Below, in pieces: positions 5,520 through 31,508 of a DNA stretch of 35,516 nt (position 1 is the stretch's first letter; every line of letters begins with the position of its first letter). Both the position numbers and the translations under genes were made by a program. Under the pieces are notes generated by a model. That model was not told the DNA's origin. It saw nothing but the letters and a program-made list of their open reading frames with translations, and made no database searches. Origin of the DNA: an uncultured Clostridia bacterium (lineage in GTDB: Bacteria; Bacillota; Clostridia; Christensenellales; UBA1242); NCBI GenBank assembly GCA_904397185.1, contig CAJFOL010000073.1, positions 1 to 35,516 of the forward strand. The letters are read 5' to 3'.

Positions 5520-5530
5520 TATGAGACGAT

Positions 5531-6389: not shown

Positions 6390-6409
6390 AATCCACCTCT
6401 CTTAACTTG

Positions 6410-6438
6410 ATTTTAACATAAACAAAGCAAAATGTCAA
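6410..6438 (-). promoter_or_regulatory. sigma-A promoter
   Basis: TTGACA-N17-TAAAAT with TG extension. Confidence 0.8.
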
Positions 6439-6451
6439 TATCATTTATAAT

Positions 6452-6486
6452 AAAAATACACCCCACTTGTTGTGTAAGGTGCATTT
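6452..6486 (-). terminator. Intrinsic terminator
   Basis: On the minus strand AAATGCACCTTAC pairs with GTGGGGTGTATTT (13 bp including G-U pairs) and ends in a T-run. Confidence 0.65.
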
Positions 6487-6492
6487 ATGCTT

Positions 6493-9588: not shown

Positions 9589-9954
9589 CTAACTTTTAAA
9601 AATTGCTTTGAGAATAAGACCAAACACAAAACTGACTGTCGCCAAAAATATACTGCGAAGCACAAGCATTAAAAGAGTTTTCTTTTGATGTTTTACATCT
9701 GCTAGATATGTCTGCCCTTTTTTCTTAAGTTTTACACAATAATAATACCCGTTTTTACTGTCAGACACCACAAAATCAATATAATTTTGCAACGATAAAC
9801 TTGCCATAATCTCGTCAATTTCATTCACTGAAAGCACCATCTTTTTGCATAACTCCTTTGCAATTTCATGCGGAGAAATAAGGTATGTTTTCTTCCCCAC
9901 ACATACCTTACATAAATATTTTAACACCAATTTTTCTTTTCTATTATCTGGCAT
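9589..9954 (-). CDS. Hypothetical winged-helix-like protein with a C-terminal TM helix
   Basis: 121 aa. Three helices plus a beta-wing pattern (SLSLQNYIDF...YCVKLKKKG) and a hydrophobic C-terminus. Confidence 0.8.
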   Translation of the reverse strand: MPDNRKEKLVLKYLCKVCVGKKTYLISPHEIAKELCKKMVLSVNEIDEIMASLSLQNYIDFVVSDSKNGYYYCVKLKKKGQTYLADVKHQKKTLLMLVLRSIFLATVSFVFGLILKAIFKS

Positions 9955-10342
9955 AAAAATTCCCTTGTCTTTATTCTTGCAAAAATATACAAAAATATTA
10001 CAAGTGAAAGAAAATTTAAAAATAATTATTAATAAAAAAGGAAATTCTCAAAAAATAAATAAAAAATTAAAAAAATATTAAATAATATATAAAATAATAG
10101 AAAAAAATCAAAAAATATGTTTTTAACATAAAAAACAATTAAATAAAGAGGGAATAATGATATAAATTAAAAAAATAAAGTGGTTTTTAAATTTCAATTT
10201 AATTTAAAATATATTTTTAAAAATGTATTTTAAAAAAAATATTGTTGCTTTACTCTCTAGAAAATACTGAAAATATTTGTTTCAAAAAAAAATGGCAATA
10301 ATTTTATGCATAAGTTACTTTATTATAGTTAAAAATATCTAT

Positions 10343-10711
10343 ATGCTTGACTTAAAGTCAAAATTGGTCCTTAAAATTTTGATTAAAGAATGTCCTTATG
10401 GCTCTTACAACATTATAGAATCCAAGGATATTATTTCTGCCATGCCTAGCAAATACAAAATAGACATGGAAGGACTGGAAAATATTTTGATTTATCTTGA
10501 GAGGCAGGAGTACATTTCAATCAAATATGATGATGACGGAGTGTACTGCCTTTGTGTGCTTCCTTTTGGAAATGAAATACTTGAAAATGATGACAACAAA
10601 AAACGGGAAGGCAATCCTCCCCGTCTTTGGGTTATAATCTTATTAGTCTTTATTTCTAGTCTTCTAGCATGTCTTCTAGGAACAGTGCTTGGTCGTATTC
10701 TACCCCTCTAG
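10343..10711 (+). CDS. Hypothetical winged-helix-like protein with a C-terminal TM helix (paralog of 9589..9954)
   Basis: Start moved from 10277 (TTG) to the ATG at 10343 because MLDLKSKLVLK aligns with the N-terminus of the paralog. YLERQEYISI...YCLCVLPFG. Hydrophobic C-terminus. Confidence 0.8.
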   Translation: MLDLKSKLVLKILIKECPYGSYNIIESKDIISAMPSKYKIDMEGLENILIYLERQEYISIKYDDDGVYCLCVLPFGNEILENDDNKKREGNPPRLWVIILLVFISSLLACLLGTVLGRILPL

Positions 10712-11417
10712 TAAATATTCTAATTTTAGACTGACGAGCCATACTATATATCCCATCAATGCCAATAATGAGTGAATCGATTAGTTTACAGCCTGAAAAA
10801 CTAAATAATCCTAGCATCTGCTCATAAGAAAGATTATCTTGTTTTGATGCAATACAACTCCCGCCTGGATGATTATGGACTATATATGCACCTGGCATTT
10901 TATAGGTAGAAACATATAGTGCAATATCTCGCATATTGAGTGAGACCATTGCCGTTCCACCCTTGCCAAAGCATCTACCCTGCATGACTTCTCCTGCAAT
11001 GTTGACACCAAACAAGTATACTTCTTCCTCATTTCTGCATCTAAGCAATTGTTCTACATAGTCAAGAAAATCGCCGAGCGAACTTGGTGGTTGTTCTGAT
11101 AATTTTTTGTTTGTGTAATAATTGAACACCTCAACCAGAGAGTGTATCTTTTTTGCAGCAGTTTCGCCAACACCTTTGACTTCCATCAAATCTTCAACAG
11201 ATGCATCTAAAACAGTTGGAACATTTTTGAACCTATCAAGAAGGCGATGGGCGAGAGGATTTACATCCCCTCGCGGGATTATGAAAAAGAGAATAAACTC
11301 AAGTGCTTGGATATCGCTTAGACCTATGAGACCGACAGTGTTGACTGTATCAAGTAATCTCTTTCTATGTCCATCATGGACGCACTTTTCATTGTTAACT
11401 TTAGTAACTTCTCTCAT
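10656..11417 (-). CDS. radC: RadC family JAB/MPN-domain protein
   Basis: HDGHRKRL N-terminus, HhH motif (VKGVGETAA), JAB motif E...HNHPGG...S..D. GAAGGGG SD inside the upstream gene. Confidence 0.92.
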   Translation of the reverse strand: MREVTKVNNEKCVHDGHRKRLLDTVNTVGLIGLSDIQALEFILFFIIPRGDVNPLAHRLLDRFKNVPTVLDASVEDLMEVKGVGETAAKKIHSLVEVFNYYTNKKLSEQPPSSLGDFLDYVEQLLRCRNEEEVYLFGVNIAGEVMQGRCFGKGGTAMVSLNMRDIALYVSTYKMPGAYIVHNHPGGSCIASKQDNLSYEQMLGLFSFSGCKLIDSLIIGIDGIYSMARQSKIRIFTRGVEYDQALFLEDMLED

Positions 11418-14400
11418 TGTTGTTCCCCTTCACTAGTATTTGCTGCAGCCACTAATTCCTCATAACTCTTGCCGTCCCAATCTTTTGGATATTGAGTAGC
11501 ATAAATACTATCCTCACCTATTTGGAAATAATTTTCGATATAATATCCCCCATCTTCGCAAAATATTTGGTCAACGTCAGATAGAATAAGAGGATTCATA
11601 TCTTCAGTATTTCCATTCCTATATATGTTTGTACCATCAAATCTTTGAATCTTAGCCGTTTCAAAGTCGTTGAGATTTGTGGCTTGATACCATCTGTTTG
11701 TATCAAGCATTTCTATTTTAGTAAAGCCATATCTTCCTCTAGCCCCACTAATACCATTGATACCATTTTGAGCCCATGCAGATATTTCTTGGCTATCTGT
11801 AGAAACGATTATTTCACCTCTTTCGCCTGCTTGTCCGCCTTCGCCTGCCTCACTTGGTTCTGGTACTTCTGATCTTGCCTCTTCACCATAGCCTTCGGCA
11901 AGTGTAGATATGCTTTCTTCTGCTCTATAGCCAGAGCCACCTGCACCGCCATTGCCACCGTCACCTGCTTTTATTATTCCATTATTGACAAATCCCATGT
12001 TGTCGTCAGTTAATGAAATAATGTTTGTTGAAGAAATAATAACATTTTTACCTGCGGAAGCATCTTCGCCATCTTCACCATCTTCACCAAAATCTGTCGC
12101 ATTATCTCCATTCTCGCCATCCATACCATTTGCGGATGAAATATAGCCAAAGTTTGTGAATTTTAACGGTGTGCTACTTGAAGTTAGTCCTTTGAATAGT
12201 GTTAGGTCATAGAACTGGCTGTTGCTTTGCAGGTGTGAGCCTGAACTATATAGGTCATTGTTGGTGTTGATATCTGAGGTTATTGTAACATAAGATGTTA
12301 TCTCAATGGTATCACCATCATAATTTCCGCTATAGTCAATCAAAGCACCGCTATTCTTATTGTATCTTTGAATAGAGCCATAATATTTGATATTGATAAT
12401 ATCTGCTTGTATGCTTGTACTTGACGTGGTAGTTTTCTTTATAAACAATGTATCATCATTCTCACCAAGGAAAACTATATCTTTTATATACGAGTTTGTA
12501 CCTAAAAGTGATTTGAAGAAGTTTGAGCCAAAATATGATATGTAATAATTGTTACCTATTATATTGACATTCCCTTTCTTTACAAATCCATCAGGTTCCA
12601 TATTAGAACTATCAAATGATATATCATTCATAAGAATTATAGACAGTGGTTCATTAGGTTTAACTGCATTTTCAACTACGTCACTATTTGTAATAGTTGG
12701 AGTCTGAGAATATGCATTTTTAACTGAGATATTAAAGGTGAAATTCTTAACCTTTACAGTGCTGTCTTGTACTCTTTCTACCATCTTTAGCAAGAATACA
12801 TATGCAGATTCTCCATCGATAATTTCATTTCTATAAACTCTATCTAAATATGCCCCTATAGAAGTTCCATTTTCTGTAGTGAGGTCTACATCAAACTTAG
12901 AGGTGTCTCCTTCTAAGATGCCAGTGCTTATTGTATATGTGTTGTAACGAGCAAATTTCGAACTTCCCCAAGAATAGCCTACGGCATTTATTGAAGTAGA
13001 AAATTCCTGTATACCATTCAATGCCTGCTCAACTTTATAAGTTATCTCATCTAGTGCTGTGTATCTATCATTTAACATCACATAATTTGTTGAGCCAACA
13101 CGACCTAATCTTAAAATATAATTTGTATCATTTTCATCGGTGTATTCAAATTCATCTTGTGTAAAGTATAGTTGACCTGTTGCACTTGATATTATATCAT
13201 AGATACTTACACATTGTCCTTGCAATGAAGTATATACACGACTCGGTCTAAATGTATATTGTCCACCATTTACACTATATTCTATACTTTCCCCTTGAAC
13301 ATATGTTTCTGCATCTTGATTATATCTATTTATAATCTCATTATTACTATTATAGTAAATAACATATGATGGTTCTCTTGTTCCATCTTCATCATTAAAT
13401 TGTCCTGCACTGTCATATGATAAAATCAAATTATCATTCACATCATACACGTTGAAGCCTTCTCTGTTTACTGGATTGCCGTCCTCATATGATACTTCAC
13501 TGAAGTAACTTACTCCTACAATGACTTTTCCGCCTCCAGCCGTATTGTCAACAGCATAATAGATTATTGTATTTTCTAAAATCATTTCATCAAGGTTGAT
13601 ATTTGTTTGCACTATGAAATATTCCAACTGACTAATTCTAGGATTGCTATCTCGAACAACAACTGTTATTTCATCCAAGTCATCTTCAGACAATGCATAG
13701 CCTGCGAAGAGTTCTATACCATATTCATTGTTCTCATTTGTTAAAACATAGTTTGGACTTAAAATATTTGTATAGTATTCTTCAGAACCCTCTGAAACTT
13801 TTGTGATAGTATTTAAGGTTGACTCACTCTCGCCTCCCCATAGTTCATAGATAACTGTGTCGCCGATTTCAAAGATGCTATTGTCTATACCTATTGTGAG
13901 ATTTGTCAAAACTGTTTGGTATGACTGTGTGTAATTTACTGACAATGTCCCATAGTATACTGTGACACCATTAAGAGTGTATGTTGTCAAGCCATTTAAG
14001 TCACTTTGATTGATAGTCAAAATATTGTCAGTAATAGTTGCTGAATTTGTGCTTGTTTCATATTCAAATTCGCGTTCAAATATGGCTTCAATATAGCCAA
14101 CAACTTCTCCATCGTCTGTAATATCAGTTCTTTGAGTAAATTCTGTCTCCAAACTTGCAAATAAGTTGTCTAATGTTACACTATTATCTAAATTATTGAT
14201 TATTGTGGTAAATGTATCTAAGTAACTGATAATTTGTTGGTTAATGCTCTCAATTTCACTCTCAGTCACTGTGCCATCAATTGTCAATGTCAATACGTTA
14301 CCTTCAATAGAAACGTCAAATGTGTGTCCGCCTATGATAAATGGAGGACAGTTTGCTGACTTAACCCAAGTTCCATTGCTGTAACTAAATACTGGAATGC

Positions 14401-17400
14401 CACTTAAGATGGCTAAGCCTTGATTTGATGATAATGATTGAAGATTTATTCTAAATTCATAACCTTGAGAATCTATGATTGTGCTTGAAGGATTTGATGA
14501 GTCTGTTGTAAACGAAGCATAACTTGCAAATTCTCCTCTTCCGTCTAAATTATCAACTACAGCAAAATTTTCTTGAATAAAGGAGCGAAGTTGATTCTCT
14601 AAAGTCGATCTCTCTGTTTCATCTAAATTCAAGTTTGCAAAAGTAAACATCAAATTGCCGTTATAACTTGCAATTGTGTAATTGTAAGTATTGCCGTTGA
14701 GCACAATTGAGTCAGTTGTACTGCTACCCATACTCCATCCGCTTGTATCTGAATATTGAGCAATAAGTGCTCTGTCATGGTAGAGTGTATAGTTTGTAAC
14801 ACTACCTGCAAACTCATACTCGTTTGCTATGTAAAGATTGATTATACTGTTGTACAAAATCACTTCACTTGATGTGATATTGTCGTTATACCAATCTGTT
14901 ACAACTTCACCATACTCAATATTTGCACTGCCTGAACTTGAACCACTTGCATTGTCTACACTATCGCTTGCATTTCCTCTAATGTTTGTAAATGAAATGT
15001 CTTTTATTCTCTCCGAAACACCCGCGACTGAGCAATAATAAGTTTTATCACTAAATCTATTGTTGATAATTGTTTGAACATTATCGTAGAAATCTGTTCC
15101 GCCATTTAGTGTTATATCCTCTTCATTTACCATAACATTTGCTCTACCATTTGATAGGTCGGCATTTGGCAGGTAAACAAGTAGTCCGCTTTCAGTTAGA
15201 CCAAAGTATAATACTGTCAAGTTAGAATCAGTGTCAGTGAAGTCTTCATCATATACAACTTCAGGATAATTCTCTTTCAAATAGTCTAATGTTACTCCAT
15301 CTTCTGCAAGTACTGCTTTTACCACTCTATCATAGTATATTGAAGGGTTAAGATTTGAACGTAATGTGTATCCGCCGATTGGTTGGAAACTATTAATTCC
15401 GTTTATCTCTATACCTACTGAGTAGTCATCAATATAATAATATTTTACATTTGATGGATTGAACGACAATGTCACATCATAGTCAAAATGTATACTGTAA
15501 CTTATTGAACCAGTCAATTCATCATCACTATAACATCTAAAGGTGATACTATTTTCACTGACAGACAAAACTGACGAGGTTAAAGAAACTTGGCCTCCAC
15601 TTGTTCTGCCTGTTGCCTCTATTGAATAATAGGAAGTATTTGCCATATAAGGCAAGTTGCCTAAAGATGCCGTAATCTCATAGGTGTATATACCAGCATT
15701 GAATATTGAACGCAAGTTATTTTCTTCTGCAATGTAGTAACTTGTTCCCCCTATTTGTACCTGTCTTGTCTCGCTTCCACTGGCATGACTTCTAGTACCA
15801 TCCTTTATGGAAGAACCATTTGTTGTGCTTACTGCATCGCTTTGACTTGAAACAAATTTGTTTGTTCCATCATCACCTTTGTATCTTTCAACATAATCTG
15901 AGTAAGCCTCGTCATATGATACTGGACTGAACTCTAAGTTGGTAACTTTATGAGGACTTTCAAGCCCATCACCCATATCAATACGATTTCTCCAGCCATA
16001 GTTTCCTACTCCATTGATTAATACACCAGCTTTTTTGCCTGTAAAATAATTTATGGTTGATTGTATTGACAATTCAACTACAAAACTCTTTGGCAAGCCA
16101 AAACTATTATAAGAGTTGATATAAACATTTGCATCTCCACTTTCAGGTCTTACTACTTCGGTGTCTATTTCAACAATTCTCTTTTCAATAGTACTGAAAT
16201 AAAGTATTGGTCCGAAAAGTATAGGCAATAACCACTCTGTTTCAAGCATAGATTCGCCATGGAAGTTTAGAGAACTAACTTTCACATAGTCGCTTATCTC
16301 CGCCCAACTCCAAGACTGAATTTCGGTGTCTTTTTCTAGCATTGAACCATTCATGTATACCGAATCTTCGCTTGCATCTAGTACTGCAAGACCACTTGCT
16401 GAGCCGTCACCAATATCTCCTATGGCATATGCCCAGACATTTCGTGGACTCGTCTGTCTTAATACTAAGTCTTCACGTCCATCCATTTCCCAATAGAAAC
16501 CAGTTGTTGGGCTTGCACCCAATGCTTCAATTGTACCTTCATTGTAGCATGAGGTAACACTTGCATTCTTTGCCTTTGCAATTATACCGCCACCATATGA
16601 GAAGCCTTGGATATTGCCATCTTCATTTGTTTTTCCATTATACTTATTTCCAGATTTGATTGTGCCTGAGTTGTAACTTCCTTGTATTGTAAGGTCATCG
16701 GCACTACTAAAGCCAGCAACACCACCTACATAATATTGTCCAAGATTTGTGAGAAGTCCGCTGTTGTTTGCATAGCCTGCCATAACTGAAGTTGCATTGT
16801 AACTATAGTTGATTGCACTCTCGCCGTCATCATCTGCAGACGCAACTAAGCCTACAATACCACCAACATAGTAGTTTTGGGTTGCAGTATTTGCAGTTGA
16901 GTAAACATTGATAGGTGCATAGTTTGAACTATAATTTATTGTACTATCAAGCATTGTACCTACAATACCACCGACTGCAAGTACAGAATAACCTGAACTA
17001 AAGCCATCTACGTCAATGGTAACCATGTTGGTAACTGTTGATATTGTTGAATTTTGTGCTTCACTGGCAAGTGCACCAATCGTCAAGTACTTGAAGTCTT
17101 CACCAAAGATTGAGGTGATATTAAAGTCATCAAATAAACCTTGAAGTAGGTCGTTTATTAGTTCTAAGAAGCCTGAGTTGTTGCTTTTGTCGATTAGTTC
17201 ACCTACAGTTGCATTTTTAATTGAGCCTGATAATGTAATGTTTGAAATATCAGAATCATATATCCTAATGGCTAAAAGTCCATTACTTGATATTTCTGCA
17301 TCGGTCAAACGAAGATTTCTAATATTCGAACGTGTCACCACTTCTATACCAGTTGATGGACCAATCATATCAAATAATGGAGAGGTCAAGCCTGAGATTG

Positions 17401-26400: not shown

Positions 26401-29400
26401 GAAGTTCATCACCATTATAAGAAATAATAGGCTGAAGATTGTCTTTATCACTCTGTGCCGTGGTGTCGACCTCTACACGAAGTGCAGCATTTGTTGATGG
26501 AGTCAAAGGTATGCTTTCGCCTGTGTAATTGAAGGATATGACACCATCAACTGGAGTTATAGTAAACGACCTACTAAACACACTATTGATTGCCGATTGA
26601 TACTCGCCGTCTGTGATAATCGCATCGACTTCAATCGAAGTTGTCACAGAGTCTTTATTGGTGCCTACCATAAATATGTTGTTGATTGGAGTGATATCTA
26701 GGCTGTTACCCACACTTGGTGTCATAGTCAATGTCATATCGTTTGCAACAAGTGAGTACTGCGAAGCAGTATTGCCTAAAAGAATTGTTGAATTTTCAAA
26801 TGTTACAGTATATTGACGTGACTTTGTCCTTTGAAGATAGGTCACTGAATTTTCTTGTATCTCATACGAATTGTTGGCATTGTCGGTGTATGAAACTATC
26901 ATTTGAGAAAGAGCATACATTACTTTGACGTCTATTGTCTTTGTATTCAAAACATCATGTTTAGAAGAAATTGTCAAGGTCACATCACCAGTGCCTACAA
27001 CTACGATGGAAGAACCTATTGTCCTCACTATTGAGGTGTCTGATGAGGTGATTATTATATTATCAGTGACATTTTCTAAGTCAAGCAACTGAGAAAGCGA
27101 GATGGTGTTGAGTTCGTTAAGGTCATTTTGTGCCGAACTTGTCAGGTCAGCCGTTCCACGTTCGACACTGTAGTAAAATAGTATTCCGCTATTTTCATTT
27201 ACCGAAAGTGACTTATAATAGCCGTCCTCATCATAGTTTTGAATCGCCCCTCCAGACACGTCAGTAACCTTCTCTTCTTGATACAAATCTCTAAAGTGAG
27301 GATTTTCATTGTTTACATATGTATAATATCCACTTCCTGATGAGATGAGATTGCCACTGTTTTCATTGTAGTATGATGAAGTGTATTCATCAAGCAGATA
27401 GTAAGACCAGTAAAAGTCAGAGTTTGAGGTGATATTTGCATATGTTGAGCCCATATCATTTCCTGCATAATATGCAACATTATCAATAACACCAAATGAG
27501 TAGTATATTCGTGTTTGCCCTGACAGTTGACCTACAATAGTACCTTTGATAGTCGCATTAATAACTGATATATTATCTTCTATATAATTATCAATATTAT
27601 AATTATAAGCATAAGAATATAATATCGAAGAGCCTTCTGTTGCCTGTCCTACGATACCACCTACAACGGCTCCAGTGAAGGTGTTATAGGCAGTTTGGGT
27701 GTCATCAGCCCTATCTGTAAGATTGTAAAATTCAACTCTTCCGTAACTGATTTCGCCGTTGTTTTGCCCTGCAATACCACCTACTGTTGCATTCTGTGCA
27801 TTGATAGTAAGACCAAGGACTGAAGAACCACTAATTGTGCCATTGTTTACACCAACAAGTCCGCCCGTCATCTCTCTTCCGTCATAATTTAATACACTTG
27901 GATAGGTTTGATAAACATCAACGGTCACATTTTCTATTGTACCGTCATTAGTATTTGCGACAAAGCCTTGTCCTGTCACTGTGCCTTGGAATGTTATATT
28001 CCTTATAATTGCATCCTCGGTCAAGGTGTTTGCAAAGTTTGCACCATTGAAGTTTATAGTAACATTTTCATCATAACCTTGAAGTCCACCACTAAATGAG
28101 TCAATAGAGACTCTAGTTGAAGAGATATCAAGGCTGTTCATTACTGTATAATATAGGCTTGGAATAATGCCATTAAACGAATTTTCATCATATATTCTAT
28201 ATGCATAATCAAAACTGCTACCATCGGCAACGGTTATCTTTATTTTCAAGAGAATATCACTAAAGTAAACCATTTCCATTTCGCCATCAAGCGAAGTGTT
28301 TGAGGTAAAGAAGGCATTGCCGACAAGGAAGTCATACCAAGTTTGTCCGTCAGACCTTAAAAGTCCTAATGCTCTAGCACTGACTTGACTTTGCACTATT
28401 TGGTCATCTACAAAGTAACTAAATATGATATTACCATTATATATTGCATCCTCTGGAAGAAGATAGATATAACCTGTTGTACCTTGTGAGATTATATCGC
28501 TTAGTGATACCCCGATTGTTCCTGTCGTAACACTGTTTACGTTGACAAAGGTATCGTTGTCAATAACATCGCCATTGTCGTCAGTTATTAAATAGGTTAT
28601 ATTGCTATTTCTTGCAGATTGTGGTGCTGTGGTAAGGATTAAATAGTATGGCTCGTCATCTCCTACTTCAAAATATATTCCATCTTCATCACTATTTTCC
28701 CAGTTAATCGAAGAAACTCTTTCTGCATTTCTAATTGTAATGTTGATAGTCGTCCACATTACGTCCAAAACTTCCTGTCCATCTTCCCCGTCAATAAGGA
28801 GTTGATAGTGAACCTCGAGTTCGTCAAAGAAGGTAAAGTCTTCATAGTTTGATATGGTTGATATTGTAAAGCGAAGTTGAGAATCTGTGATTGTTATATT
28901 TTCTATTGTATACCTACCATAATCCCACACAACCGAGTTGCTGTTTGTATGACTTTCACCCATAATTGAATTGCCAGACGAGTCTTTTACGGTAGACACA
29001 AATCTAATATTGTCAATAGATTTATATGTAATACCCGTGTTGGTAAAGTTTATAGTGATAGTCTTCTTTGTAAGGTCATCATCTCTAGTCGCAACGGTGT
29101 TTGCTGAGTAAAGATTTACCTGTCCGTCACTTGAAGGTGTGATTCTCATGCCATCTGGAGCAACATAACTTTCAATAAGTATAATTTTTATAATAGTTAC
29201 ATCGCCGTCCACACCTTTCCCTGTAAAAGTTGCAACAGCATAAGTAAAGCCTACTCCGCTCGTAATGATAGAACTATTATCCGCCGAGAAATATGCCACT
29301 GCACTGTATTTCTGCTGATTTGCTCTCGCATTTTCGATAATTTGTAAGATACCATCTTGAGTGTTTACCAAATTTTTAAACACGTCAAGTGTCATGGTTT

Positions 29401-31414
29401 CACTTGCAACAAAATCATAATAAGATACATCTATATCTGCTACCGCCTCATAGTTACCTGAGGAGTTGAATGAGTAAAACAGTGGTGTTGTCGACCCATT
29501 TTTGAGCATAATACTTGATAAACTTTCGTTATTCTCTTGTATTGCATTTCCTGCCAAATCATAAGACAGATTGTTTGTAGAATAATCGGTTACTGATGCC
29601 GAGGCATTATGTAAAATTACCACACTATTAAACGGAAGGAAGATGTTTATATCAAACTCTTCGCTTTCAAAGCCGTTCTCATGGCAAATCTTATAATGGT
29701 CAATACTTGTTACACCATAACTTGACCTATTTAAAGTCAATGTCACTGCAAATGTGACCGAATCGGTTGTTGCTGATACAAAAGTAGGTCCAGTCAGTGT
29801 CACATTTTCGCTATCCACATCAAGGTACAATCCATCTATTGTCGTCTGTCCTTGCAAAGTAAAGTATTTTGTTTGTGATATGGCTGTTCCGCTTGCACTT
29901 GAGTCAATATTAAAGTCGGCATCCTCGAAGACAAAATCCTCTTGTGTCACACTCTTTATAAGTTGAACGTCAAATGTATTTGTAACCTCTTCATTGTCTG
30001 CACTTCTAAAAGTTACCCTTATACCCTCGAAATTTTGAACTCTCAAATCTGATGCCGCTTTCATGTAAATTCTATCAGCCGAAAGCATATTCTCATCGCG
30101 GGTTGTGTATACGTTGCCGTCATATTCAAGCAATGCTTGAGTGATAGTGTTATTTAAAGAATCTTGATACCAAAATTCCACAGGACAGCCACTAGACAAG
30201 CCTCCTTCTGGCAAAACACCATTTGTTATTTCAACACTGATTGAATACCTGCCAGAGGCATTTACCACTGTTGTTGGTGTCACTTCTACAAAATATTCTT
30301 TGCCATATATATTTCTATATTGTGAATAAAGGACCTGTGTTGTGCCTTCAATGTTGTCTGCCCCATCCGTTGAAATTGTTATACCATTTACCTTTTCTCT
30401 TACACTAACGTAGATAGGCAAGCTTCGAATTGCTGGCAAGTCATAATCAGAATAGCCAACCTCAAAATATACAACAAAATCTTCATTTAGACTTGTAATA
30501 TTCTTGTTTGTGTAAATTGCATAGATTGGGTTACCTTCGCCATCTTCCCCTGTCGACTCAATTATCAACTGGTCAGTGGCATTACCAAACGAGTCTGTAA
30601 CAGTGTAAGAAACCTCAAGGTCTTGAGTGAAGTTGAGTTTTACATATCCTGTATACTGCTCATCACTGGCAAGGTTTGGCACAATGGTAAAGGTAGAATT
30701 ATCTTCAGTTATTTGGTCATACTGCTGATTATCTCGGCTATAGGACCAAGAGAGAGTGAGGTCATCTTCAAGTTGGTCTATAACTGGAAGTTCTATATCA
30801 CAAGTAACTCCCTTCTCTGTCGTAGCCCTAATTATAATAGTATTTTGCTGATACTCAGGAGATATTGTTAAAACATTGCCATTTATAGAGGCATTTGCCT
30901 CACCATCATATAACTCCCAAGTTATTGTACGTCTAGAATTAGAAGAAGGATAGAAAGTTAAAAGATTGTAGTCAATAAGTTCAATGCTGTCGCCTCGGAT
31001 TGCGAAGTTAGATTTTTTGTCGGTCTCTTCTGTCCTTTGTTCCATAGCCGAAACCTCACTGAAAACATCGACATTTATAATCTTTGTGATGTTCCCTTGA
31101 TAAGAGGTCACGTATATTTGACCATAACCTTCAGATAGCCCTGTAATAGTTATTACAGTTCGCCCATCTGAAAGCCCTTCTGTCCTATATGAAAGTATTG
31201 ACGTATCTCGTGCATCGACAGAGACTTGGCTGTCGCTTGTTCCCGTGACAGTCACTGTAACCTCTGCAGTTGATGGCACTGTGTCATCACCTATCTGTAT
31301 TTCTACATATTGAGTTGACAGTGTCATTTGAATGTTGTTCGTTGTGCAAGCGGTCAATATAGTCGCCCCAAGCAAAACAAACATACTTAAAAGCCCGACA
31401 AAAAACTTTTTCAT
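11414..31414 (-). CDS. Giant 6666-aa surface lipoprotein (Ig-like arrays, GLUG/beta-helix modules, Gly-rich tip); putative adhesin
   Basis: Uninterrupted 20,001-bp ORF with GAGGAGG SD. Signal peptide MKKFF...LTA-C lipobox. Many GGLVG/GGIAG/GGIIG motifs. Big_2-like motifs such as SSDTSIVRTIGSSIVVVGTGDVTLTI. Rich in N/S/T/D. Confidence 0.93.
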   Translation of the reverse strand: MKKFFVGLLSMFVLLGATILTACTTNNIQMTLSTQYVEIQIGDDTVPSTAEVTVTVTGTSDSQVSVDARDTSILSYRTEGLSDGRTVITITGLSEGYGQIYVTSYQGNITKIINVDVFSEVSAMEQRTEETDKKSNFAIRGDSIELIDYNLLTFYPSSNSRRTITWELYDGEANASINGNVLTISPEYQQNTIIIRATTEKGVTCDIELPVIDQLEDDLTLSWSYSRDNQQYDQITEDNSTFTIVPNLASDEQYTGYVKLNFTQDLEVSYTVTDSFGNATDQLIIESTGEDGEGNPIYAIYTNKNITSLNEDFVVYFEVGYSDYDLPAIRSLPIYVSVREKVNGITISTDGADNIEGTTQVLYSQYRNIYGKEYFVEVTPTTVVNASGRYSISVEITNGVLPEGGLSSGCPVEFWYQDSLNNTITQALLEYDGNVYTTRDENMLSADRIYMKAASDLRVQNFEGIRVTFRSADNEEVTNTFDVQLIKSVTQEDFVFEDADFNIDSSASGTAISQTKYFTLQGQTTIDGLYLDVDSENVTLTGPTFVSATTDSVTFAVTLTLNRSSYGVTSIDHYKICHENGFESEEFDINIFLPFNSVVILHNASASVTDYSTNNLSYDLAGNAIQENNESLSSIMLKNGSTTPLFYSFNSSGNYEAVADIDVSYYDFVASETMTLDVFKNLVNTQDGILQIIENARANQQKYSAVAYFSADNSSIITSGVGFTYAVATFTGKGVDGDVTIIKIILIESYVAPDGMRITPSSDGQVNLYSANTVATRDDDLTKKTITINFTNTGITYKSIDNIRFVSTVKDSSGNSIMGESHTNSNSVVWDYGRYTIENITITDSQLRFTISTISNYEDFTFFDELEVHYQLLIDGEDGQEVLDVMWTTINITIRNAERVSSINWENSDEDGIYFEVGDDEPYYLILTTAPQSARNSNITYLITDDNGDVIDNDTFVNVNSVTTGTIGVSLSDIISQGTTGYIYLLPEDAIYNGNIIFSYFVDDQIVQSQVSARALGLLRSDGQTWYDFLVGNAFFTSNTSLDGEMEMVYFSDILLKIKITVADGSSFDYAYRIYDENSFNGIIPSLYYTVMNSLDISSTRVSIDSFSGGLQGYDENVTINFNGANFANTLTEDAIIRNITFQGTVTGQGFVANTNDGTIENVTVDVYQTYPSVLNYDGREMTGGLVGVNNGTISGSSVLGLTINAQNATVGGIAGQNNGEISYGRVEFYNLTDRADDTQTAYNTFTGAVVGGIVGQATEGSSILYSYAYNYNIDNYIEDNISVINATIKGTIVGQLSGQTRIYYSFGVIDNVAYYAGNDMGSTYANITSNSDFYWSYYLLDEYTSSYYNENSGNLISSGSGYYTYVNNENPHFRDLYQEEKVTDVSGGAIQNYDEDGYYKSLSVNENSGILFYYSVERGTADLTSSAQNDLNELNTISLSQLLDLENVTDNIIITSSDTSIVRTIGSSIVVVGTGDVTLTISSKHDVLNTKTIDVKVMYALSQMIVSYTDNANNSYEIQENSVTYLQRTKSRQYTVTFENSTILLGNTASQYSLVANDMTLTMTPSVGNSLDITPINNIFMVGTNKDSVTTSIEVDAIITDGEYQSAINSVFSRSFTITPVDGVISFNYTGESIPLTPSTNAALRVEVDTTAQSDKDNLQPIISYNGDELHITKDEVLSANNKTVYHYTLPQDYMADENNYILSATVTLLNEDDAFDEETETYGYLFEISFSVYVDYRSNIARDMDFVVTFRSNSNIDSSDLSSGNNNGQVLLNLTRQKFTNIDVTSYKVENSYWTNDNGIYRTVHQKGDQTSVVTPGSNTILQVTANPSFAHYDYMELSYSNASVANAVSFELVMPYNNNNNFVGYDGADVSVYANTIRFTPNSDQNNDGTLYFRTAISSQVNSDSTIRFTASFFTSEGTLLSTVNYYLTINYLSEPVVLVDGETQSYVALGSTVDVEVQVRQDQVVESATLVGDNIQEVYISSLSTPTTDPITGIKTYTASITAGVNASVNSSNNSLSLLVKVSRTINGVKESRDYFATITLVDIKVDTNNIQIVGADNGNLDAWAGVTSAFEVEYNVLPESYTYDHNDEESVAKVSELLQKRQEFLVNQYHVSSKTFTDASGESSTLIQYAINYDIENNRPYKLSERLFYIVNGNEEIPVLDNYRYTAGARFEFIENTNGTEEASIIGARQGETVQFRLKTFVYTSGSATGTPMTYNTDFTVTVGVYSDEDLPISINSASDFENLDPSNYTGTVTQNDYILMNDIVLDEHTPFNTNLISSLDGNGYTIHIRSFNLTSTSSELNIALFNNVLESTTLKNVRVNIYNGGQLTINLSALNNNVQINIAGLAISNAGIITNSEVVSFYTTGNAVGQSESLLEPATNEHNNPSGFNVKFIRGALTTESVYLTAGSSWSTQMAGFVISNSGNITNSRVGGDEVTILGEDRTEVAENGDVIAMGYTFASTIDLDTFYMIGQGDMAGFVLTNSGSISASFVKLLDMENQSRATAYDTSGFAGTNSGTILTSYAEGKQDETNTNDWAKFAYTGTSLKSAYGIIAGFINSNNGLIKDSYSNILISNSSNSLNVYLASGFVYRNEGTIETSYSASQIANSRSTQMNFSGVNESGDLLANGTYTNCYYFNYQYYGNEEASDSSNEALYSTGAILIPDPENSTYFYGFAIADSEYDGIWSNVVGEGIKLIEPNIKTYSHRYVSYIAEGSEVGGVVGVDDQGEYVLPYAILQFTDSTREINTSLGSSNNPILIANAQDFVDAMGLSTSSYEGQYFNSYSIWGTYRLVGDVNLSDLSTSITLPSVSKSFSGRLYANGFTISNLSIASEGEGVAYGLFASLESRNGSTPLVSNLNLEIDQVIAGDITMVGGLAGYAKDSILVGIDISFSDDSQVNGLNFVGGLVGLSFGNSVIKNITVTNPNVIADRYDSNDYFTTESIRTIRNEIRNNLNNSTVVSSPLVNTLSVYSYAGSVVGYADHFTTLLDGFNINQAENFTINNIRVSGRVYVQGQVAGGIFGLTAYQTNVRDAGITIEADSDNTQSHIIATKFFAGGAIGQSFGSLSRIFAVYDDSTQSEIENNMSSFYTGDNSTERGATNLFYLDNSSYNQEYIGGLVGYVESGRMEISYSKLNVVSMASNFAGGIIGGINLSSANTYQAEAELLGDDQEIYTKYFINEVFATGDVRARQDGESGVMTAGGIIGANYGSGRIALMAVNALNYISNYDYNANSYLTFNSSINVSETFKTNLILGSSFDLGESGKWVYTNLNDSNYTPYLNLIRLSNEGDAGQGSILSPTVAFYESYTFNGNIMSLNLFGDVDSSIEDNTLYETNYVYAINSPINYTSSAIGHTFTQQGFLSSGVWNTENWTHPTDDLFPSIQYQRVSNVIYLDAYDESIERAFDIMQSPNSDITIIVRGLVSADAEDTTGNYVDIDLATYFNNNYTPISNFSGSLVGHTNTYTTVDATTGEERPIRIISDQSFIESVGAGFYLDDVVIEYVPKSGSEIKITANNGNAGLFSTGSLNEATITNLRIYIDAPINTTVALNTGSNINVGILAPEIINSTIINVSIDTVTYPSSDFTDSDSLLNVYFTTSSSAGDNSPISVDSLSVGMLAGRMYQSSTSSTMQVNGLNMSIHSNLINIDGSARQNDSFRNTNFTNMYVGGYFGLIEREANALRMNLSLQGIERINSSNDENQRVTVSHASATNAYIAGYIGYNHGLDTLTLQSNFTGSVDVYLNDTSSATSSFTTLHTGIIFGRADNTNVNAINFNSARFDGGLYVVQNSGSENNVTITSLYAGGYAGSLGSSMTITNLSELNYEIVALSSASSGVSEISKDTLDSNDYASNTLTLGTANTVGIVKAGVVVGSTNAYFSMGADLTRLNANGESFRFVGISDDSAIGSVLGETTATSLAELRNNTVNITSGVVSYAQFVVIGSGEIDDSPAVGGIIGSVYKTDTSAGGNSISRVNVGAQNSSYVAFNGAVYSNISNITFGGIIGETNFTSASDTVSLINTSFGGMLKVYGANSQGGDVIAGGLVGRLGSPAGISQTIQATITNSFNYGDVYVCYDDNLEELDSYVFGGLLADISSQYRIVANGNYSMVTNHNARDEVNSTNTTYTSIGALFGRAPSPQSALSNNYYSSSVSLCIDNYGSDIGYLVPYIGDGYGYNSTNNLSLSTDGTNELSMLGRYAQINTLLSVDNVDVGHKLQPYELTNDTTIIPNSYKFNGMTYATISQNSADLSFTEPFTLEVGTELEVGTDKTTLKDVAIIGGAGEINYTVNDSSETHSSLINSLSGFSYVSGLVVNVDISTNSMDSEGSTITLDDNYSGIANSMYDNSQIFAVQVKGKMDIGGNKVIDVAGVVTNLYSGKIEYATTALDIIYRGASDSGDMAEVYGLVGLRNELNGSISNSDNNKFVFNSYTTGSITSYISANLYAFASTLNTNTFEIANSYSITKLDLNDYTTSGKPTGELSIFGVDDENDNITDSYYDYNAINASVLEDDTDYKQNTDYVTGLTNNSESNLGIRNNYDKGDYDFNYGYPTSKFGFLKTSSYVSAGTTTQGTNYDEYITETEYTRLANNTRPSDYSNVYFIIPNAGLLAKADDIDYTITTDEGTTTTEVRNFVLWYDIDLSQSQYSTWTSLIFETTTTTDNGDTYIPINFDGREKTISGLTSPLFDMIGPSTGIEVVTRSNIRNLRLTDAEISSNGLLAIRIYDSDISNITLSGSIKNATVGELIDKSNNSGFLELINDLLQGLFDDFNITSIFGEDFKYLTIGALASEAQNSTISTVTNMVTIDVDGFSSGYSVLAVGGIVGTMLDSTINYSSNYAPINVYSTANTATQNYYVGGIVGLVASADDDGESAINYSYNATSVMAGYANNSGLLTNLGQYYVGGVAGFSSADDLTIQGSYNSGTIKSGNKYNGKTNEDGNIQGFSYGGGIIAKAKNASVTSCYNEGTIEALGASPTTGFYWEMDGREDLVLRQTSPRNVWAYAIGDIGDGSASGLAVLDASEDSVYMNGSMLEKDTEIQSWSWAEISDYVKVSSLNFHGESMLETEWLLPILFGPILYFSTIEKRIVEIDTEVVRPESGDANVYINSYNSFGLPKSFVVELSIQSTINYFTGKKAGVLINGVGNYGWRNRIDMGDGLESPHKVTNLEFSPVSYDEAYSDYVERYKGDDGTNKFVSSQSDAVSTTNGSSIKDGTRSHASGSETRQVQIGGTSYYIAEENNLRSIFNAGIYTYEITASLGNLPYMANTSYYSIEATGRTSGGQVSLTSSVLSVSENSITFRCYSDDELTGSISYSIHFDYDVTLSFNPSNVKYYYIDDYSVGIEINGINSFQPIGGYTLRSNLNPSIYYDRVVKAVLAEDGVTLDYLKENYPEVVYDEDFTDTDSNLTVLYFGLTESGLLVYLPNADLSNGRANVMVNEEDITLNGGTDFYDNVQTIINNRFSDKTYYCSVAGVSERIKDISFTNIRGNASDSVDNASGSSSGSANIEYGEVVTDWYNDNITSSEVILYNSIINLYIANEYEFAGSVTNYTLYHDRALIAQYSDTSGWSMGSSTTDSIVLNGNTYNYTIASYNGNLMFTFANLNLDETERSTLENQLRSFIQENFAVVDNLDGRGEFASYASFTTDSSNPSSTIIDSQGYEFRINLQSLSSNQGLAILSGIPVFSYSNGTWVKSANCPPFIIGGHTFDVSIEGNVLTLTIDGTVTESEIESINQQIISYLDTFTTIINNLDNSVTLDNLFASLETEFTQRTDITDDGEVVGYIEAIFEREFEYETSTNSATITDNILTINQSDLNGLTTYTLNGVTVYYGTLSVNYTQSYQTVLTNLTIGIDNSIFEIGDTVIYELWGGESESTLNTITKVSEGSEEYYTNILSPNYVLTNENNEYGIELFAGYALSEDDLDEITVVVRDSNPRISQLEYFIVQTNINLDEMILENTIIYYAVDNTAGGGKVIVGVSYFSEVSYEDGNPVNREGFNVYDVNDNLILSYDSAGQFNDEDGTREPSYVIYYNSNNEIINRYNQDAETYVQGESIEYSVNGGQYTFRPSRVYTSLQGQCVSIYDIISSATGQLYFTQDEFEYTDENDTNYILRLGRVGSTNYVMLNDRYTALDEITYKVEQALNGIQEFSTSINAVGYSWGSSKFARYNTYTISTGILEGDTSKFDVDLTTENGTSIGAYLDRVYRNEIIDGESAYVFLLKMVERVQDSTVKVKNFTFNISVKNAYSQTPTITNSDVVENAVKPNEPLSIILMNDISFDSSNMEPDGFVKKGNVNIIGNNYYISYFGSNFFKSLLGTNSYIKDIVFLGENDDTLFIKKTTTSSTSIQADIINIKYYGSIQRYNKNSGALIDYSGNYDGDTIEITSYVTITSDINTNNDLYSSGSHLQSNSQFYDLTLFKGLTSSSTPLKFTNFGYISSANGMDGENGDNATDFGEDGEDGEDASAGKNVIISSTNIISLTDDNMGFVNNGIIKAGDGGNGGAGGSGYRAEESISTLAEGYGEEARSEVPEPSEAGEGGQAGERGEIIVSTDSQEISAWAQNGINGISGARGRYGFTKIEMLDTNRWYQATNLNDFETAKIQRFDGTNIYRNGNTEDMNPLILSDVDQIFCEDGGYYIENYFQIGEDSIYATQYPKDWDGKSYEELVAAANTSEGEQQ
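18621..18656. repeat. Perfect 18-bp in-frame tandem duplication
   Basis: TCTGTGCCTACTTCTAAT x2, encoding LEVGTELEVGTD in the giant protein. Confidence 0.9.
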
Positions 31415-31478
31415 ATATCCTCCTCGTTTGTTGCCCTCAATGACAAAACAAACTTAAACAGCAATTTTGTATAAAAAG

Positions 31479-31508
31479 ATTATACATTTTTGCCATGTTT
31501 TTTGTCAA
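31479..31508 (-). promoter_or_regulatory. sigma-A promoter of the giant gene/radC unit
   Basis: TTGACA-N18-TATAAT, about 60 nt upstream of the ATG. Confidence 0.75.

What the first reader, a model, noticed from the sequence alone, without database searches (positions are those of the whole stretch)
11414..31414. Intact 6666-aa lipoprotein with alternating Ig-like stalks and ~7 GLUG/beta-helix modules
Seen: a lipobox, Ig-like beta-rich tracts (aa ~25-1060 and ~1400-2230), and recurring module heads of the type P/Y-x-I...Y/F-x-L-x-x-D-I...F/L-D/S-G-x-G-x-T-I followed by GGLVG-type rungs. These heads start near nt 28220, 24720, 23150, 21240, 18790, 17630 and 12640 (the fourth and fifth are degenerate). 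The modules are highly diverged, so this is not a recent repeat expansion. I saw no HExxH, LPxTG, SLH or RTX motif. Known: GLUG motifs occur in M26/IgA1-protease-associated and adhesin passenger regions. Inference: a non-catalytic, lipid-anchored filament possibly over 100 nm long that mediates cell-cell or host attachment. This is the best candidate for an undescribed system in the window.
Basis: partly seen in the sequence, partly recalled or inferred. Interest (0 to 1): 0.8.

Follow-up and report, generated by a model that had tools for sequence, protein, structure and literature searches.

The report
Giant lipid-anchored surface fibre, swappable tip
This is a real, conserved 6666-residue surface lipoprotein of a tiny-genome gut bacterium: a long stalk of Ig-like and beta-helix modules ends in a tip that differs sharply between strains, so it most likely serves attachment, though no binding has been tested.

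Summary
The ORF at 11414-31414 (-) is intact and encodes 6666 aa. It has a lipobox, a 12/12 consensus promoter and a GAGGAGG ribosome-binding site. Contigs from two other public runs each span all 20 kb, so it is not a misassembly. Full-length orthologs (6097-6891 aa, all with the lipobox, same flanking genes) were fetched from 14 genomes of the genus. Related giant frames occur in 104 of 150 genomes of the family (genomes 0.7-1.6 Mb). Other families of the order gave only short module matches in proteins of at most 4490 aa.

An AlphaFold model of aa 1800-2999 (pLDDT 81.7) shows Ig-like beta-sandwiches followed by a right-handed beta-helix. The best structural match of that helix is the non-catalytic beta-helix of M26 IgA1 proteases (Z 25.1). 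No catalytic, toxin, LPxTG, SLH or RTX signature was found.

New here: the last ~1650 aa are hypervariable. One allele is 99% identical over aa 1-5030, then mosaic at 16-96%. In a sister pair, synonymous divergence jumps about tenfold in the tip, which points to recombinational replacement.

Best reading: a lipid-anchored fibrillar adhesin with an exchangeable tip. The function is inferred. It is a new variant of a known kind.

The parts
31479..31508 (-). sigma-70-type promoter, TTGACA-18 nt-TATAAT
   Evidence: It matches 12 of 12 consensus positions and ends about 65 nt upstream of the ATG. It is a consensus match only and is not shown to be active.
31419..31425 (-). ribosome-binding site GAGGAGG, 4 nt before the ATG
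   Evidence: Read directly from the sequence.
31346..31414 (-). lipoprotein signal peptide, aa 1-23 (MKK, hydrophobic core, lipobox LTAC)
   Evidence: A lipobox is present in all 14 fetched orthologs as well. Lgt and LspA genes are present in 5 of 5 genomes searched.
28220..31345 (-). proximal beta-rich stalk, aa 24-1065, possibly Big_2-like Ig domains
   Evidence: This is a lead only. ESM-Atlas named clusters were 10 of 10 Big_2, at scores of 0.87-0.89. Big_2 was found in 1 of 15 orthologs at E 0.012. A profile search against PDB sequences found nothing. The region was not modelled.
27215..28219 (-). beta-helix module 1, aa 1066 to about 1400
   Evidence: Glug PF07581 scores 24.9 bits at aa 1181-1205. 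The head at 1084-1216 matches heads 2, 3, 6 and 7 by hhalign at 87-96%. The C-terminal limit is approximate.
24725..27214 (-). second stalk, aa 1401-2230, Ig-like beta-sandwich domains
   Evidence: In the AlphaFold2 model, residues 1-430 (aa 1800-2230) are beta-sandwiches plus one helix. The top Foldseek matches are tandem Ig-like arrays at E 1e-8 to 1e-6. Aa 1401-1799 were not modelled.
23153..24724 (-). beta-helix module 2, aa 2231-2754
   Evidence: This part of the model has mostly high pLDDT. The best structural matches are 7uvk_A (Z 25.1, rmsd 3.1, 271 aligned), 7jgj_A (Z 22.3) and 3n6z_A (Z 20.7); generic beta-helices score <=17.2. dN/dS is 0.01-0.05 in the G011/G006 pair.
21242..23152 (-). 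beta-helix module 3, aa 2755-3391
   Evidence: The head at 2761-2913 and the rungs at 2834-3155 match other modules at 82-96%. Glug scores 19.1 bits at aa 2908-2931, below the cut-off. Model residues 960-1200 are also short-strand beta.
   Evidence: Rung-type hhalign matches fall at 3512-3639, 3752-3957, 4038-4104 and 4276-4495 (82-95%), but there is no head-to-head match. GG[LIVF][VIAL]G motifs lie at 3952, 3999 and 4040. The region was not modelled. dN/dS is 0.29-0.62 in the G011/G006 pair.
16307..17629 (-). beta-helix module 6, aa 4596-5036
   Evidence: The head at 4596-4728 matches heads 1, 2 and 3 at 94-96% and head 7 at 84%. Glug scores 25.3 bits at aa 4940-4962.
12662..16306 (-). hypervariable distal region, aa 5037-6251, fold unknown
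   Evidence: Mean identity to 14 orthologs is 9-19% here, against 25-45% for aa 1-3400. Allele P0003 switches from 99% identity to 16-96% per 25-aa window at about aa 5037. The AlphaFold2 model is poor (pLDDT 49.7 overall); only aa 5526-5736 shows a beta-plus-long-helix unit, twice. ESM-Atlas found nothing.
11417..12661 (-). terminal module 7, aa 6252-6666: beta-helix head, glycine-rich motifs (GDGGNGGAGGSG) and a C-terminal tail
   Evidence: hhalign links it to heads 1 and 6 at 84-87%. On a low-confidence model the best structural matches are 7uvk Z 12.3, 7jgj Z 11.1 and 3n6z Z 11.0. The Gly motif is present in 4 of 14 genus orthologs and in 9 of 9 proteins found by C-terminal similarity. Only 12 representatives among 1.84 billion proteins match it.
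10656..11417 (-). radC-like gene whose ATG overlaps the giant gene's TGA (ATGA); a neighbour, not shown to be functionally linked
   Evidence: The neighbour was found at 13 of 14 orthologous loci, lying directly after the giant gene on the same strand in 12 of them and inverted further downstream in G002.

Best explanation
The gene encodes a giant cell-surface fibre.

Proposed mechanism:
- The protein is exported by Sec. Lgt adds a lipid at Cys23 and LspA cleaves the signal peptide, so the N-terminus is held in the outer leaflet of the cytoplasmic membrane.
- About 1000 residues of beta-rich, probably Ig-like, domains then act as a spacer through the cell wall.
- Beyond that, GLUG-type right-handed beta-helix modules alternate with Ig-like arrays to build a rigid stalk that is conserved and under purifying selection.
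- The distal ~1650 residues, ending in a glycine-rich beta-helix cap, form the working end. They are exchanged between lineages by recombination, as expected for a ligand-binding tip under diversifying or frequency-dependent selection from host immunity, phages or changing partners.

Shown: the intact, conserved gene; lipobox and maturation enzymes; the folds of aa 1800-2712; the divergence gradient; allelic mosaicism.
Inferred: surface exposure, the wall-spanning role, length (roughly 100-170 nm from textbook domain sizes) and adhesion itself.
For: - The gene is intact and has expression signals.
- Independent contigs of 27,255 nt (X2) and 35,607 nt (X5, another study) each span all 20 kb, with 31 and 179 differences.
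- Contigs of 11.6 and 8.0 kb from a metatranscriptome library cover 11779-31414.
- The lipobox is present in 15 of 15 orthologs. Lgt is found in 5 of 5 genomes, LspA in 5 of 5, a PBP transpeptidase in 5 of 5 and sortase in only 1 of 5.
- The protein is acidic and has no other hydrophobic segment.
- The folds are an Ig-like array plus an IgA1-protease-type beta-helix.
- Conservation: 21 of 24 genomes of the genus and 104 of 150 of the family have a match, and the neighbouring genes recur at the 14 fetched loci (the upstream PP-loop gene at 11, radC at 13, uvrB at 12).
- In the G011/G006 pair, dN/dS is 0.01-0.2 in 14 of the 17 windows up to about aa 3380 (the other three 0.22-0.41) and dS there is 0.14-0.30 (one window 0.48). 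In the tip dS is 1.6-2.2 or saturated.
- Allele P0003 differs at 41 columns in aa 1-5030 and is then mosaic. Both alleles stand for many sequences: 19 and 38 members.
- The near-complete relatives lack PGI (0 of 5) and ATP synthase alpha/beta above the cut-off (0 of 5). This fits a dependent lifestyle in which attachment matters.
Against: - No binding domain of known specificity was found, and no experiment bears on adhesion.
- The tip model is poor (pLDDT 49.7).
- About 60% of the protein (aa 24-1800, 3000-5467) was not modelled, so a cryptic enzyme cannot be excluded.
- The most conserved part is the beta-helix pair 2-3, not the tip. The key function could therefore sit in the stalk.
- Presence in an RNA library does not prove transcription, because DNA carry-over is possible.
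- High tip divergence could also reflect relaxed constraint, although the tip stays open in all 15 orthologs.
Confidence: 0.6

Rival explanations
1. The protein is a structural coat or spacer. Together with the other giant proteins of this genome it forms a thick protective or size-excluding layer, a functional substitute for an S-layer or capsule, rather than a specific adhesin. Tip variability would then be antigenic variation only.
For: G000 has at least 10 open frames of >=1800 aa, about 35,000 aa in all, or some 9% of the assembly. At least three of them carry lipoboxes. The stalk is strongly conserved. No ligand-binding domain was recognised.
Against: No self-assembly or lattice domain was found, and no SLH domain. 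A 1650-aa recombining tip is a costly way to achieve antigenic variation alone. The other giant proteins carry typical adhesin domains such as YDG, MBG_2, Flg_new and VWA.
Confidence: 0.15
2. The protein is a surface-tethered enzyme. One or more beta-helix modules, or an unmodelled region, would be a glycan lyase, hydrolase or protease acting on host mucus or on partner cell walls.
For: Right-handed beta-helices are the fold of many polysaccharide lyases and phage depolymerases. These appear as lower-ranked matches at Z 11-17. Giant genes of predatory bacteria have been linked to cell-wall degradation (title and abstract of bioRxiv 10.1101/2023.11.21.568195, seen in the listing).
Against: The best matches by a clear margin are the non-catalytic IgA1-protease beta-helices (Z 25.1, 22.3 and 20.7 against <=17.2). 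There is no HExxH motif. Pfam, NCBIfam and PHROGs found no enzyme family on 13 tiles.
Confidence: 0.1
3. The protein is a polymorphic toxin or contact-dependent effector. The variable C-terminus would be a deliverable toxin, and a downstream gene would provide immunity.
For: A sharp intra-species switch occurs in the C-terminal region behind a conserved N-terminal body, as in CdiA and Rhs systems (recalled from general knowledge). A gene overlaps the stop codon.
Against: The variable part is about 1650 aa and mosaic, not a short cassette behind a fixed motif. The very C-terminal residues are conserved again between alleles. No toxin or pre-toxin family was found. The overlapping gene is a RadC/JAB+HHH protein found at 13 of 14 loci at 32-71% identity, not a variable immunity gene. 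PADLOC was not run.
Confidence: 0.05
4. The ORF is an artefact: a chimeric assembly or a decaying pseudogene.
For: The window is a whole contig of a MAG that is only 75% complete.
Against: Two independent contigs span the gene. P0002 is 83-100% identical in every 100-aa window (96% or more in all but two) over 6667 aa. Fourteen full-length orthologs have no internal stop. Purifying selection is strong.
Confidence: 0.01

Closest known systems
Beta-helix (NTD) of M26 IgA1 metalloproteases (S. pneumoniae IgA1P, PDB 7jgj; G. haemolysans, 7uvk) and the BACOVA_03286 domain (3n6z)
   Same: These are the best structural matches of module 2 (Z 25.1, 22.3 and 20.7, at 15% identity) and of the terminal module (Z 12.3, 11.1 and 11.0). 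The Glug motif is shared. In pneumococcal IgA1P this beta-helix (residues 781-1070) is a small non-catalytic domain that gates the active site (passages read in PMC7695701).
   Different: There is no M26 catalytic region: no HExxH and no Peptidase_M26 hit. The anchor is a lipid, not LPxTG. The protein has about seven modules instead of one and is three to five times longer.
Giant1-5 surface proteins of Apilactobacillus kunkeei (3000-8000 aa, 6% of a 1.5 Mb genome)
   Same: Very large extracellular proteins take up a large share of a small genome. They have a beta-solenoid plus long elongated parts and diversify by intragenic recombination (abstract of PMC12863079).
   Different: There the beta-solenoid is N-terminal and SRRP-like, and the genes are clustered. 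Here the beta-helices are of IgA1P/GLUG type and spread along the chain, the variable end is C-terminal, the anchor is a lipobox, and the gene sits alone among housekeeping genes. No sequence relation was tested.
Fibrillar adhesins of Gram-positive bacteria (Ebh/Embp of staphylococci; the 7651-aa Ig-repeat adhesin of Mobiluncus mulieris)
   Same: These are single-chain fibres with stalks of Ig-like domains and a presumed distal binding part (abstracts of PMC9302970 and PMC10619420 in the listing).
   Different: Those stalks are tandem near-identical repeats. Here self-BLAST finds a single internal match. No sortase signal is present, and sortase was found in only 1 of 5 genomes.
Chlamydial polymorphic membrane proteins and autotransporter passengers (Vag8, Fap2)
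   Same: They have beta-helical passengers built from short glycine-containing rung motifs: GGA(I,L,V)/FxxN in Pmps (abstract of PMC11166332). Vag8 is a lower-ranked structural match at Z 15.7.
   Different: Those are outer-membrane proteins of diderms with a C-terminal beta-barrel. This protein has an N-terminal lipid anchor, and no other hydrophobic or barrel-like region was detected.

Membership tests
GLUG-motif beta-helix domain (Pfam PF07581; IgA1-protease-type beta-helix) | Glug motif matches above the Pfam gathering score | tested here: met
   Two tiles score above the 20.5-bit cut-off (24.9 and 25.3 bits). A third scores 19.1 bits, below it.
GLUG-motif beta-helix domain (Pfam PF07581; IgA1-protease-type beta-helix) | Right-handed beta-helix fold closest to the IgA1P NTD | tested here: met
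   Module 2 matches 7uvk (Z 25.1, rmsd 3.1, 271 aligned), 7jgj (Z 22.3) and 3n6z (Z 20.7). The next unrelated beta-helix scores 17.2. The terminal module gives Z 12.3, but on a low-confidence model.
M26 IgA1 metalloprotease (ZmpA/B/C/D) | HExxH zinc site with the M26 catalytic domains | tested here: not met
   There are 0 HExxH motifs in 6666 aa. No Peptidase_M26 family was found on 13 tiles.
M26 IgA1 metalloprotease (ZmpA/B/C/D) | LPxTG-type wall anchor (the feature is recalled from general knowledge) | tested here: not met
   There are 0 LPxT[GAN] motifs.
Bacterial lipoprotein (Lgt/LspA pathway) | Signal peptide ending in a lipobox [LVI][ASTVI][GAS]C | tested here: met
   The N-terminus is MKKFFVGLLSMFVLLGATILTAC. 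A Cys-containing lipobox is present in all 14 fetched orthologs.
Bacterial lipoprotein (Lgt/LspA pathway) | The genome encodes Lgt and signal peptidase II | tested here: met
   PF01790 was found in 5 of 5 genomes and PF01252 in 5 of 5, G000 included.
Bacterial lipoprotein (Lgt/LspA pathway) | Actual lipid modification of Cys23 | not testable with these tools
   This needs labelling, globomycin treatment or mass spectrometry.
Fibrillar adhesin (stalk + adhesive domain + anchor) | Stalk of Ig-like or similar domains plus a cell anchor | tested here: met
   An Ig-like array is shown for aa 1800-2230 and a lipobox anchor is present. For the proximal tract, aa 24-1065, there is only a lead.
Fibrillar adhesin (stalk + adhesive domain + anchor) | A domain that binds a ligand | not testable with these tools
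   No known adhesive domain was recognised. The tip fold is unresolved.
Polymorphic toxin / contact-dependent inhibition | A recognisable toxin or pre-toxin domain and a variable immunity gene downstream | tested here: not met
   No such Pfam or NCBIfam family was found. The downstream gene is a conserved radC.
Sortase-anchored surface protein | A C-terminal LPxTG sorting signal and a sortase in the genome | tested here: not met
   There is no sorting motif and no C-terminal hydrophobic segment. Sortase PF04203 was found in 1 of 5 genomes and not in G000, which is 75% complete.
RTX / S-layer (SLH) proteins | GGxGxD nonapeptides, or SLH domains | tested here: not met
   There are 0 GGxGxD motifs and no SLH or HemolysinCabind hit.

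The most novel reading that the evidence does not exclude
This lipoprotein is the attachment organelle of an obligately partner- or host-dependent family of genome-reduced gut Clostridia. The conserved beta-helix/Ig stalk would hold out a roughly 1650-aa tip that is swapped between lineages by recombination and sets which host surface or partner bacterium the cell can latch onto. This would be a cellular counterpart of phage receptor-binding proteins, and the feature that makes life possible without PGI, an ATP synthase or most biosynthesis.
Probability: 0.25. Interest if true: 0.75.

Novelty: new variant of a known kind. Interest (0 to 1): 0.5.

Why it matters
Genome-reduced, uncultured Clostridia are common in chicken and other animal guts. 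A published analysis of one such family, UBA1242, proposes that they live off other cells but names no attachment machinery (whole text of PMC12306168 read; passages of PMC13155120).

Here a bacterium with a genome of about 1 Mb keeps a 20-kb gene under purifying selection. That is 1.7% of this assembly and about 2% of the 0.8-1.0 Mb relatives. Homologous giant frames are spread over 44 of 58 genera of its family.

This gives a concrete candidate for how these cells hold on to a host or partner. The strain-variable tip could serve as a marker for strain tracking and as a handle for enrichment or cultivation. Structurally, it shows the small IgA1-protease beta-helix reused as a repeated building block of a fibre.

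Tried and rejected
- NCBIfam and PHROGs on 13 tiles gave 0 families.
- PDB sequence searches found nothing significant. They used a profile of aa 24-1100 (best E 0.24), a profile of aa 1800-2999 (0 hits at E<=1) and the last 400 aa (best E 2.5).
- ESM-Atlas on aa 5001-6666 gave a best score of 0.78, which is uninformative.
- AlphaFold2 of aa 5467-6666 gave mean pLDDT 49.7. Only the last module could be compared with known folds, and I drew no fold conclusion for aa 5467-6250.
- tblastn of 200-aa tiles of the giant protein against its own genome found one match outside the contig, on C86. No internal donor cassettes for the tip were therefore seen in this 75%-complete assembly.
- I considered that the glycine-rich tip motifs might form a polyglycine-II type adhesin head, as in some phage adhesins. 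That resemblance is recalled, not tested. No PDB sequence match and no listed structural match supports it, so I dropped it.
- Assignment of the genome to family UBA1242 is left open. Record titles say only 'uncultured Clostridia/Firmicutes bacterium'. A class II aldolase family is present in 5 of 5 genomes, whereas the paper reports fructose-bisphosphate aldolase missing.
- The first hhalign run exceeded the time limit and was redone in batches.
- Literature searches found no description of this protein family.
Full report
**What is there.** The window is one whole contig (C73) of a metagenome-assembled genome of 1.19 Mb in 128 contigs, 75% complete and 36% GC. On the minus strand, 11414-31414 is a single frame from ATG to TGA encoding 6666 aa. 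Only two other ORFs of >=100 aa overlap it, of 134 and 104 aa. About 65 nt upstream of the ATG lies a 12-of-12 match to TTGACA-18-TATAAT, and GAGGAGG sits 4 nt before the ATG. The stop codon overlaps the start of a radC-like gene as ATGA.

The protein starts MKKFFVGLLSMFVLLGATILTAC, a lipoprotein signal peptide with Cys23. This is its only strongly hydrophobic segment. The protein is rich in S, T, N and G and very acidic, with 820 D+E against 311 K+R. It contains no HExxH, LPxT[GAN] or GGxGxD motif.

**Is it real?**
- Contigs from two other public runs, one from a different study, each span the whole 20 kb in one piece. They are 27,255 nt with 31 differences and 35,607 nt with 179 differences.
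- A protein of 6667 aa from another assembly, P0002, standing for 19 sequences, is 83-100% identical in every 100-aa window, and 96% or more in all but two.
- Contigs of 11.6 and 8.0 kb from a metatranscriptome library cover 11779-31414. The tool warns that DNA can be present in such libraries, so this is only weak evidence of transcription.
- The 3' 10 kb is held by 20 runs of 12 studies, mostly labelled chicken gut metagenome.
- Misassembly is therefore excluded.

**Conservation.**
- With aa 2232-3200 as query, 21 of 24 other genomes of the genus have a match at 37-73% identity. In 14 of them the open frame is 6100-6904 aa. The shorter frames (944-5704 aa) were not examined and may be cut by contig ends.
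- I fetched 14 full-length orthologs of 6097-6891 aa. All have a lipobox.
- The neighbouring genes recur at these loci, which were fetched with only about 3 kb on either side. The order is a divergent PP-loop ATPase gene, the giant gene, radC, two small ORFs and uvrB. Matches were found for the PP-loop gene at 11 of 14, radC at 13 of 14 and uvrB at 12 of 14; in G002 radC and the small ORFs lie in a different order and orientation. The gene thus sits among core chromosomal genes, not on an island.
- In the family, 104 of 150 genomes (44 of 58 genera, genomes of 0.7-1.6 Mb) have matches, in frames mostly of 4000-8400 aa.
- In 16 genomes of 16 other families of the order, the single-sequence query found nothing.
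- A profile of aa 1800-2999 found full-length matches only in the family (5 of 5). In 41 of 145 genomes of other families it found only short matches of at most about 235 profile positions, mainly the module head, in frames of 392-4490 aa.
- The giant architecture is therefore family-specific and built from a widespread small module.

**Architecture.** Pfam on 13 overlapping tiles finds only the Glug motif, three times. NCBIfam and PHROGs find nothing. Internal similarity is invisible to BLAST, with one off-diagonal hit. Profile-profile comparison of tiles of the ortholog alignment (351 pairs) does connect module heads at aa 1084-1216, 2258-2441, 2761-2913, 4596-4728 and 6260-6348 at 84-96% probability. 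It also connects rung regions at 2834-3155, 3512-3639, 3752-3957, 4038-4104, 4276-4495 and 4773-4959. The two it called degenerate show rung similarity only.

An AlphaFold2 model of aa 1800-2999, built from 15 sequences, has mean pLDDT 81.7. Residues 1-430 are beta-sandwich domains whose best Foldseek matches are tandem Ig-like arrays (pilins, nectins, titin, PrgB, antigen I/II) at E 1e-8 to 1e-6. Residues 432-913, which are aa 2231-2712, form a short-strand right-handed beta-helix. Its best matches are:
- the Gemella IgA1 protease, 7uvk (Z 25.1, rmsd 3.1 A, 271 aligned, 15% identity);
- the pneumococcal IgA1 protease, 7jgj (Z 22.3);
- BACOVA_03286, 3n6z (Z 20.7).

These stand clearly above generic beta-helix enzymes and tailspikes, which score <=17.2. 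In the pneumococcal enzyme this beta-helix (residues 781-1070) is a small non-catalytic domain that gates the active site (passages of PMC7695701).

For the proximal tract, aa 24-1065, I have only a lead towards Big_2-type Ig domains. A PDB sequence search gave nothing, and the tract was not modelled.

**The variable end.** Mean identity to the 14 orthologs is 25-45% for aa 1-3400, 21-34% for 3400-5000 and 9-20% for 5000-6666. The gradient recurs in the closer pairs that can show it. For example, G011 against G006 gives 92%, 67% and 23%.

Within what is evidently the same species, protein P0003 (38 member sequences) differs from the window's protein at only 41 alignment columns in aa 1-5030. 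From about aa 5037 it becomes a mosaic:
- 20-64% identity per 25-aa window up to about aa 5475;
- 68-96% from about 5475 to 5925;
- 16-84% to the end (65% in the last, 17-aa window), with the last residues identical again.

P0002 shares a P0003-type block at aa 4952-4990 but is of the window's type afterwards.

For the close pair G011/G006 I computed Nei-Gojobori rates in 200-codon windows:
- Up to about aa 3380, dS is 0.14-0.30 (one window 0.48). dN/dS is 0.01-0.2 in 14 of the 17 windows and 0.22-0.41 in the other three, and is as low as 0.01-0.05 in three of the four windows over beta-helix modules 2-3 (0.15 in the fourth).
- At 3380-4700, dN/dS is 0.29-0.62.
- Beyond 4700, dS rises to 1.6-2.2 or saturates.

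A tenfold jump in synonymous divergence cannot come from faster protein evolution. It means the tip sequences have a much older common ancestor than the stalk, so they were exchanged by recombination.

The tip's last module again resembles the IgA1-protease beta-helix (Z 12.3, 11.1 and 11.0, on a low-confidence model) and carries invariant glycine-rich motifs such as GDGGNGGAGGSG. That motif occurs in only 4 of 14 genus orthologs, so species carry different tip types. Only 12 representatives among 1.84 billion proteins match the terminal 416 aa. No donor copies were found elsewhere in this incomplete genome.

**Cell context.** Lgt, LspA and a PBP transpeptidase are present in 5 of 5 genomes searched (G000 plus four near-complete relatives). 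Sortase is present in only 1 of 5. These cells therefore make peptidoglycan and lipoproteins but mostly cannot anchor proteins by sortase, which fits the lipid anchor.

The same five genomes lack PGI (0 of 5) and ATP-synthase alpha/beta above the cut-off (0 of 5, controls 14 of 14). They do have a class II aldolase (5 of 5). The genome also holds at least nine further open frames of 1800-6428 aa, so giant proteins take about 9% of the assembly. Some of them carry YDG, MBG_2, Flg_new, VWA or subtilase domains.

**Interpretation.** The best-supported reading is a lipid-anchored fibrillar surface protein with a conserved rigid stalk and an exchangeable distal end, most likely for attachment. The steps shown and the steps inferred are listed under Best explanation.

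The length estimate is arithmetic from recalled textbook dimensions: about 3.5-4 nm per Ig-like domain and 0.48 nm per beta-helix rung. It suggests roughly 100-170 nm if the protein is fully extended.

The rivals are a protective coat, a tethered enzyme and a polymorphic toxin. They are not excluded but have less support. A toxin reading lacks any toxin family, and the downstream gene is a conserved radC.

**Comparison and novelty.** The building block belongs with the GLUG/IgA1-protease beta-helix. The protein is not an M26 protease, because the catalytic features were tested and are absent. As a kind of thing it resembles the giant fibrillar adhesins of Gram-positive bacteria and the Giant1-5 proteins of Apilactobacillus kunkeei, which also fill several per cent of a small genome and diversify by intragenic recombination (abstract of PMC12863079).

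It differs from these in four ways:
- a lipid anchor;
- diverged beta-helix modules alternating with Ig arrays, instead of tandem repeats;
- a very long recombining C-terminal tip;
- restriction to one family of genome-reduced gut Clostridia.

Five literature searches found no description of it; supplements were closed. The family may be UBA1242 (Christensenellales), which a published analysis describes as probably partner-dependent (PMC12306168, whole text). That assignment is unproven here. I rate the finding a new variant of a known kind, of moderate interest.

Noticed in passing
G000 contigs C70, C86, C58, C21, C93, C117, C102, C51: The genome holds at least nine more open frames of 1801-6428 aa. 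Together with this gene they make about 35,000 aa, or some 9% of the 1.19 Mb assembly. C86 and C21 start with lipoboxes, and C70 and C58 with a transmembrane anchor. Pfam finds YDG, MBG_2 and Flg_new on C70, VWA, FctA and DUF11 on C117, and subtilase, LRR_5 and Flg_new on C51.
   Followed up: partly
G000:C86 (3839-aa frame); G001:C6, G003:C5, G008:C2, G023:C6: A shorter paralog family (frames of 3100-3850 aa, with a lipobox in G000) shares the beta-helix modules. In four genomes it lies about 36-39 kb from the giant gene on the same contig.
   Followed up: no
window 11414-11417: The giant gene's TGA overlaps the ATG of a RadC-JAB/HHH gene (ATGA), which suggests translational coupling of a 20-kb surface-protein gene with a DNA-repair-type gene. 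A radC match was found at 13 of 14 orthologous loci, directly after the giant gene on the same strand in 12 of them.
   Followed up: partly
G000, G005, G006, G011, G023 (whole genomes): No PGI (0 of 5) and no ATP-synthase alpha/beta above the cut-off (0 of 5; controls 12 of 14 and 14 of 14). A class II aldolase family is present in 5 of 5. Sortase was found only in G005.
   Followed up: partly
window 3-671, 3875-5470, 5598-6389, 6493-7416: More putative surface or repeat proteins lie beside uvrA and uvrB: a BspA-type LRR protein cut by the contig end, two WG-repeat proteins, and a membrane-anchored Big_3 protein.
   Followed up: no
window 9589-9954 (-) and 10277-10711 (+): Two small ORFs with C-terminal hydrophobic tails have no Pfam family. 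Both are matched near the giant gene at all 14 orthologous loci, at 62-92% and 44-80% identity.
   Followed up: no
G000:C117 (7642-nt contig): A 2435-aa frame carries VWA, FctA isopeptide and DUF11 domains, a pilin- or sortase-substrate-like architecture, in a genome where no sortase was found. It may be a binning contaminant, or the sortase may lie in the missing 25%.
   Followed up: no
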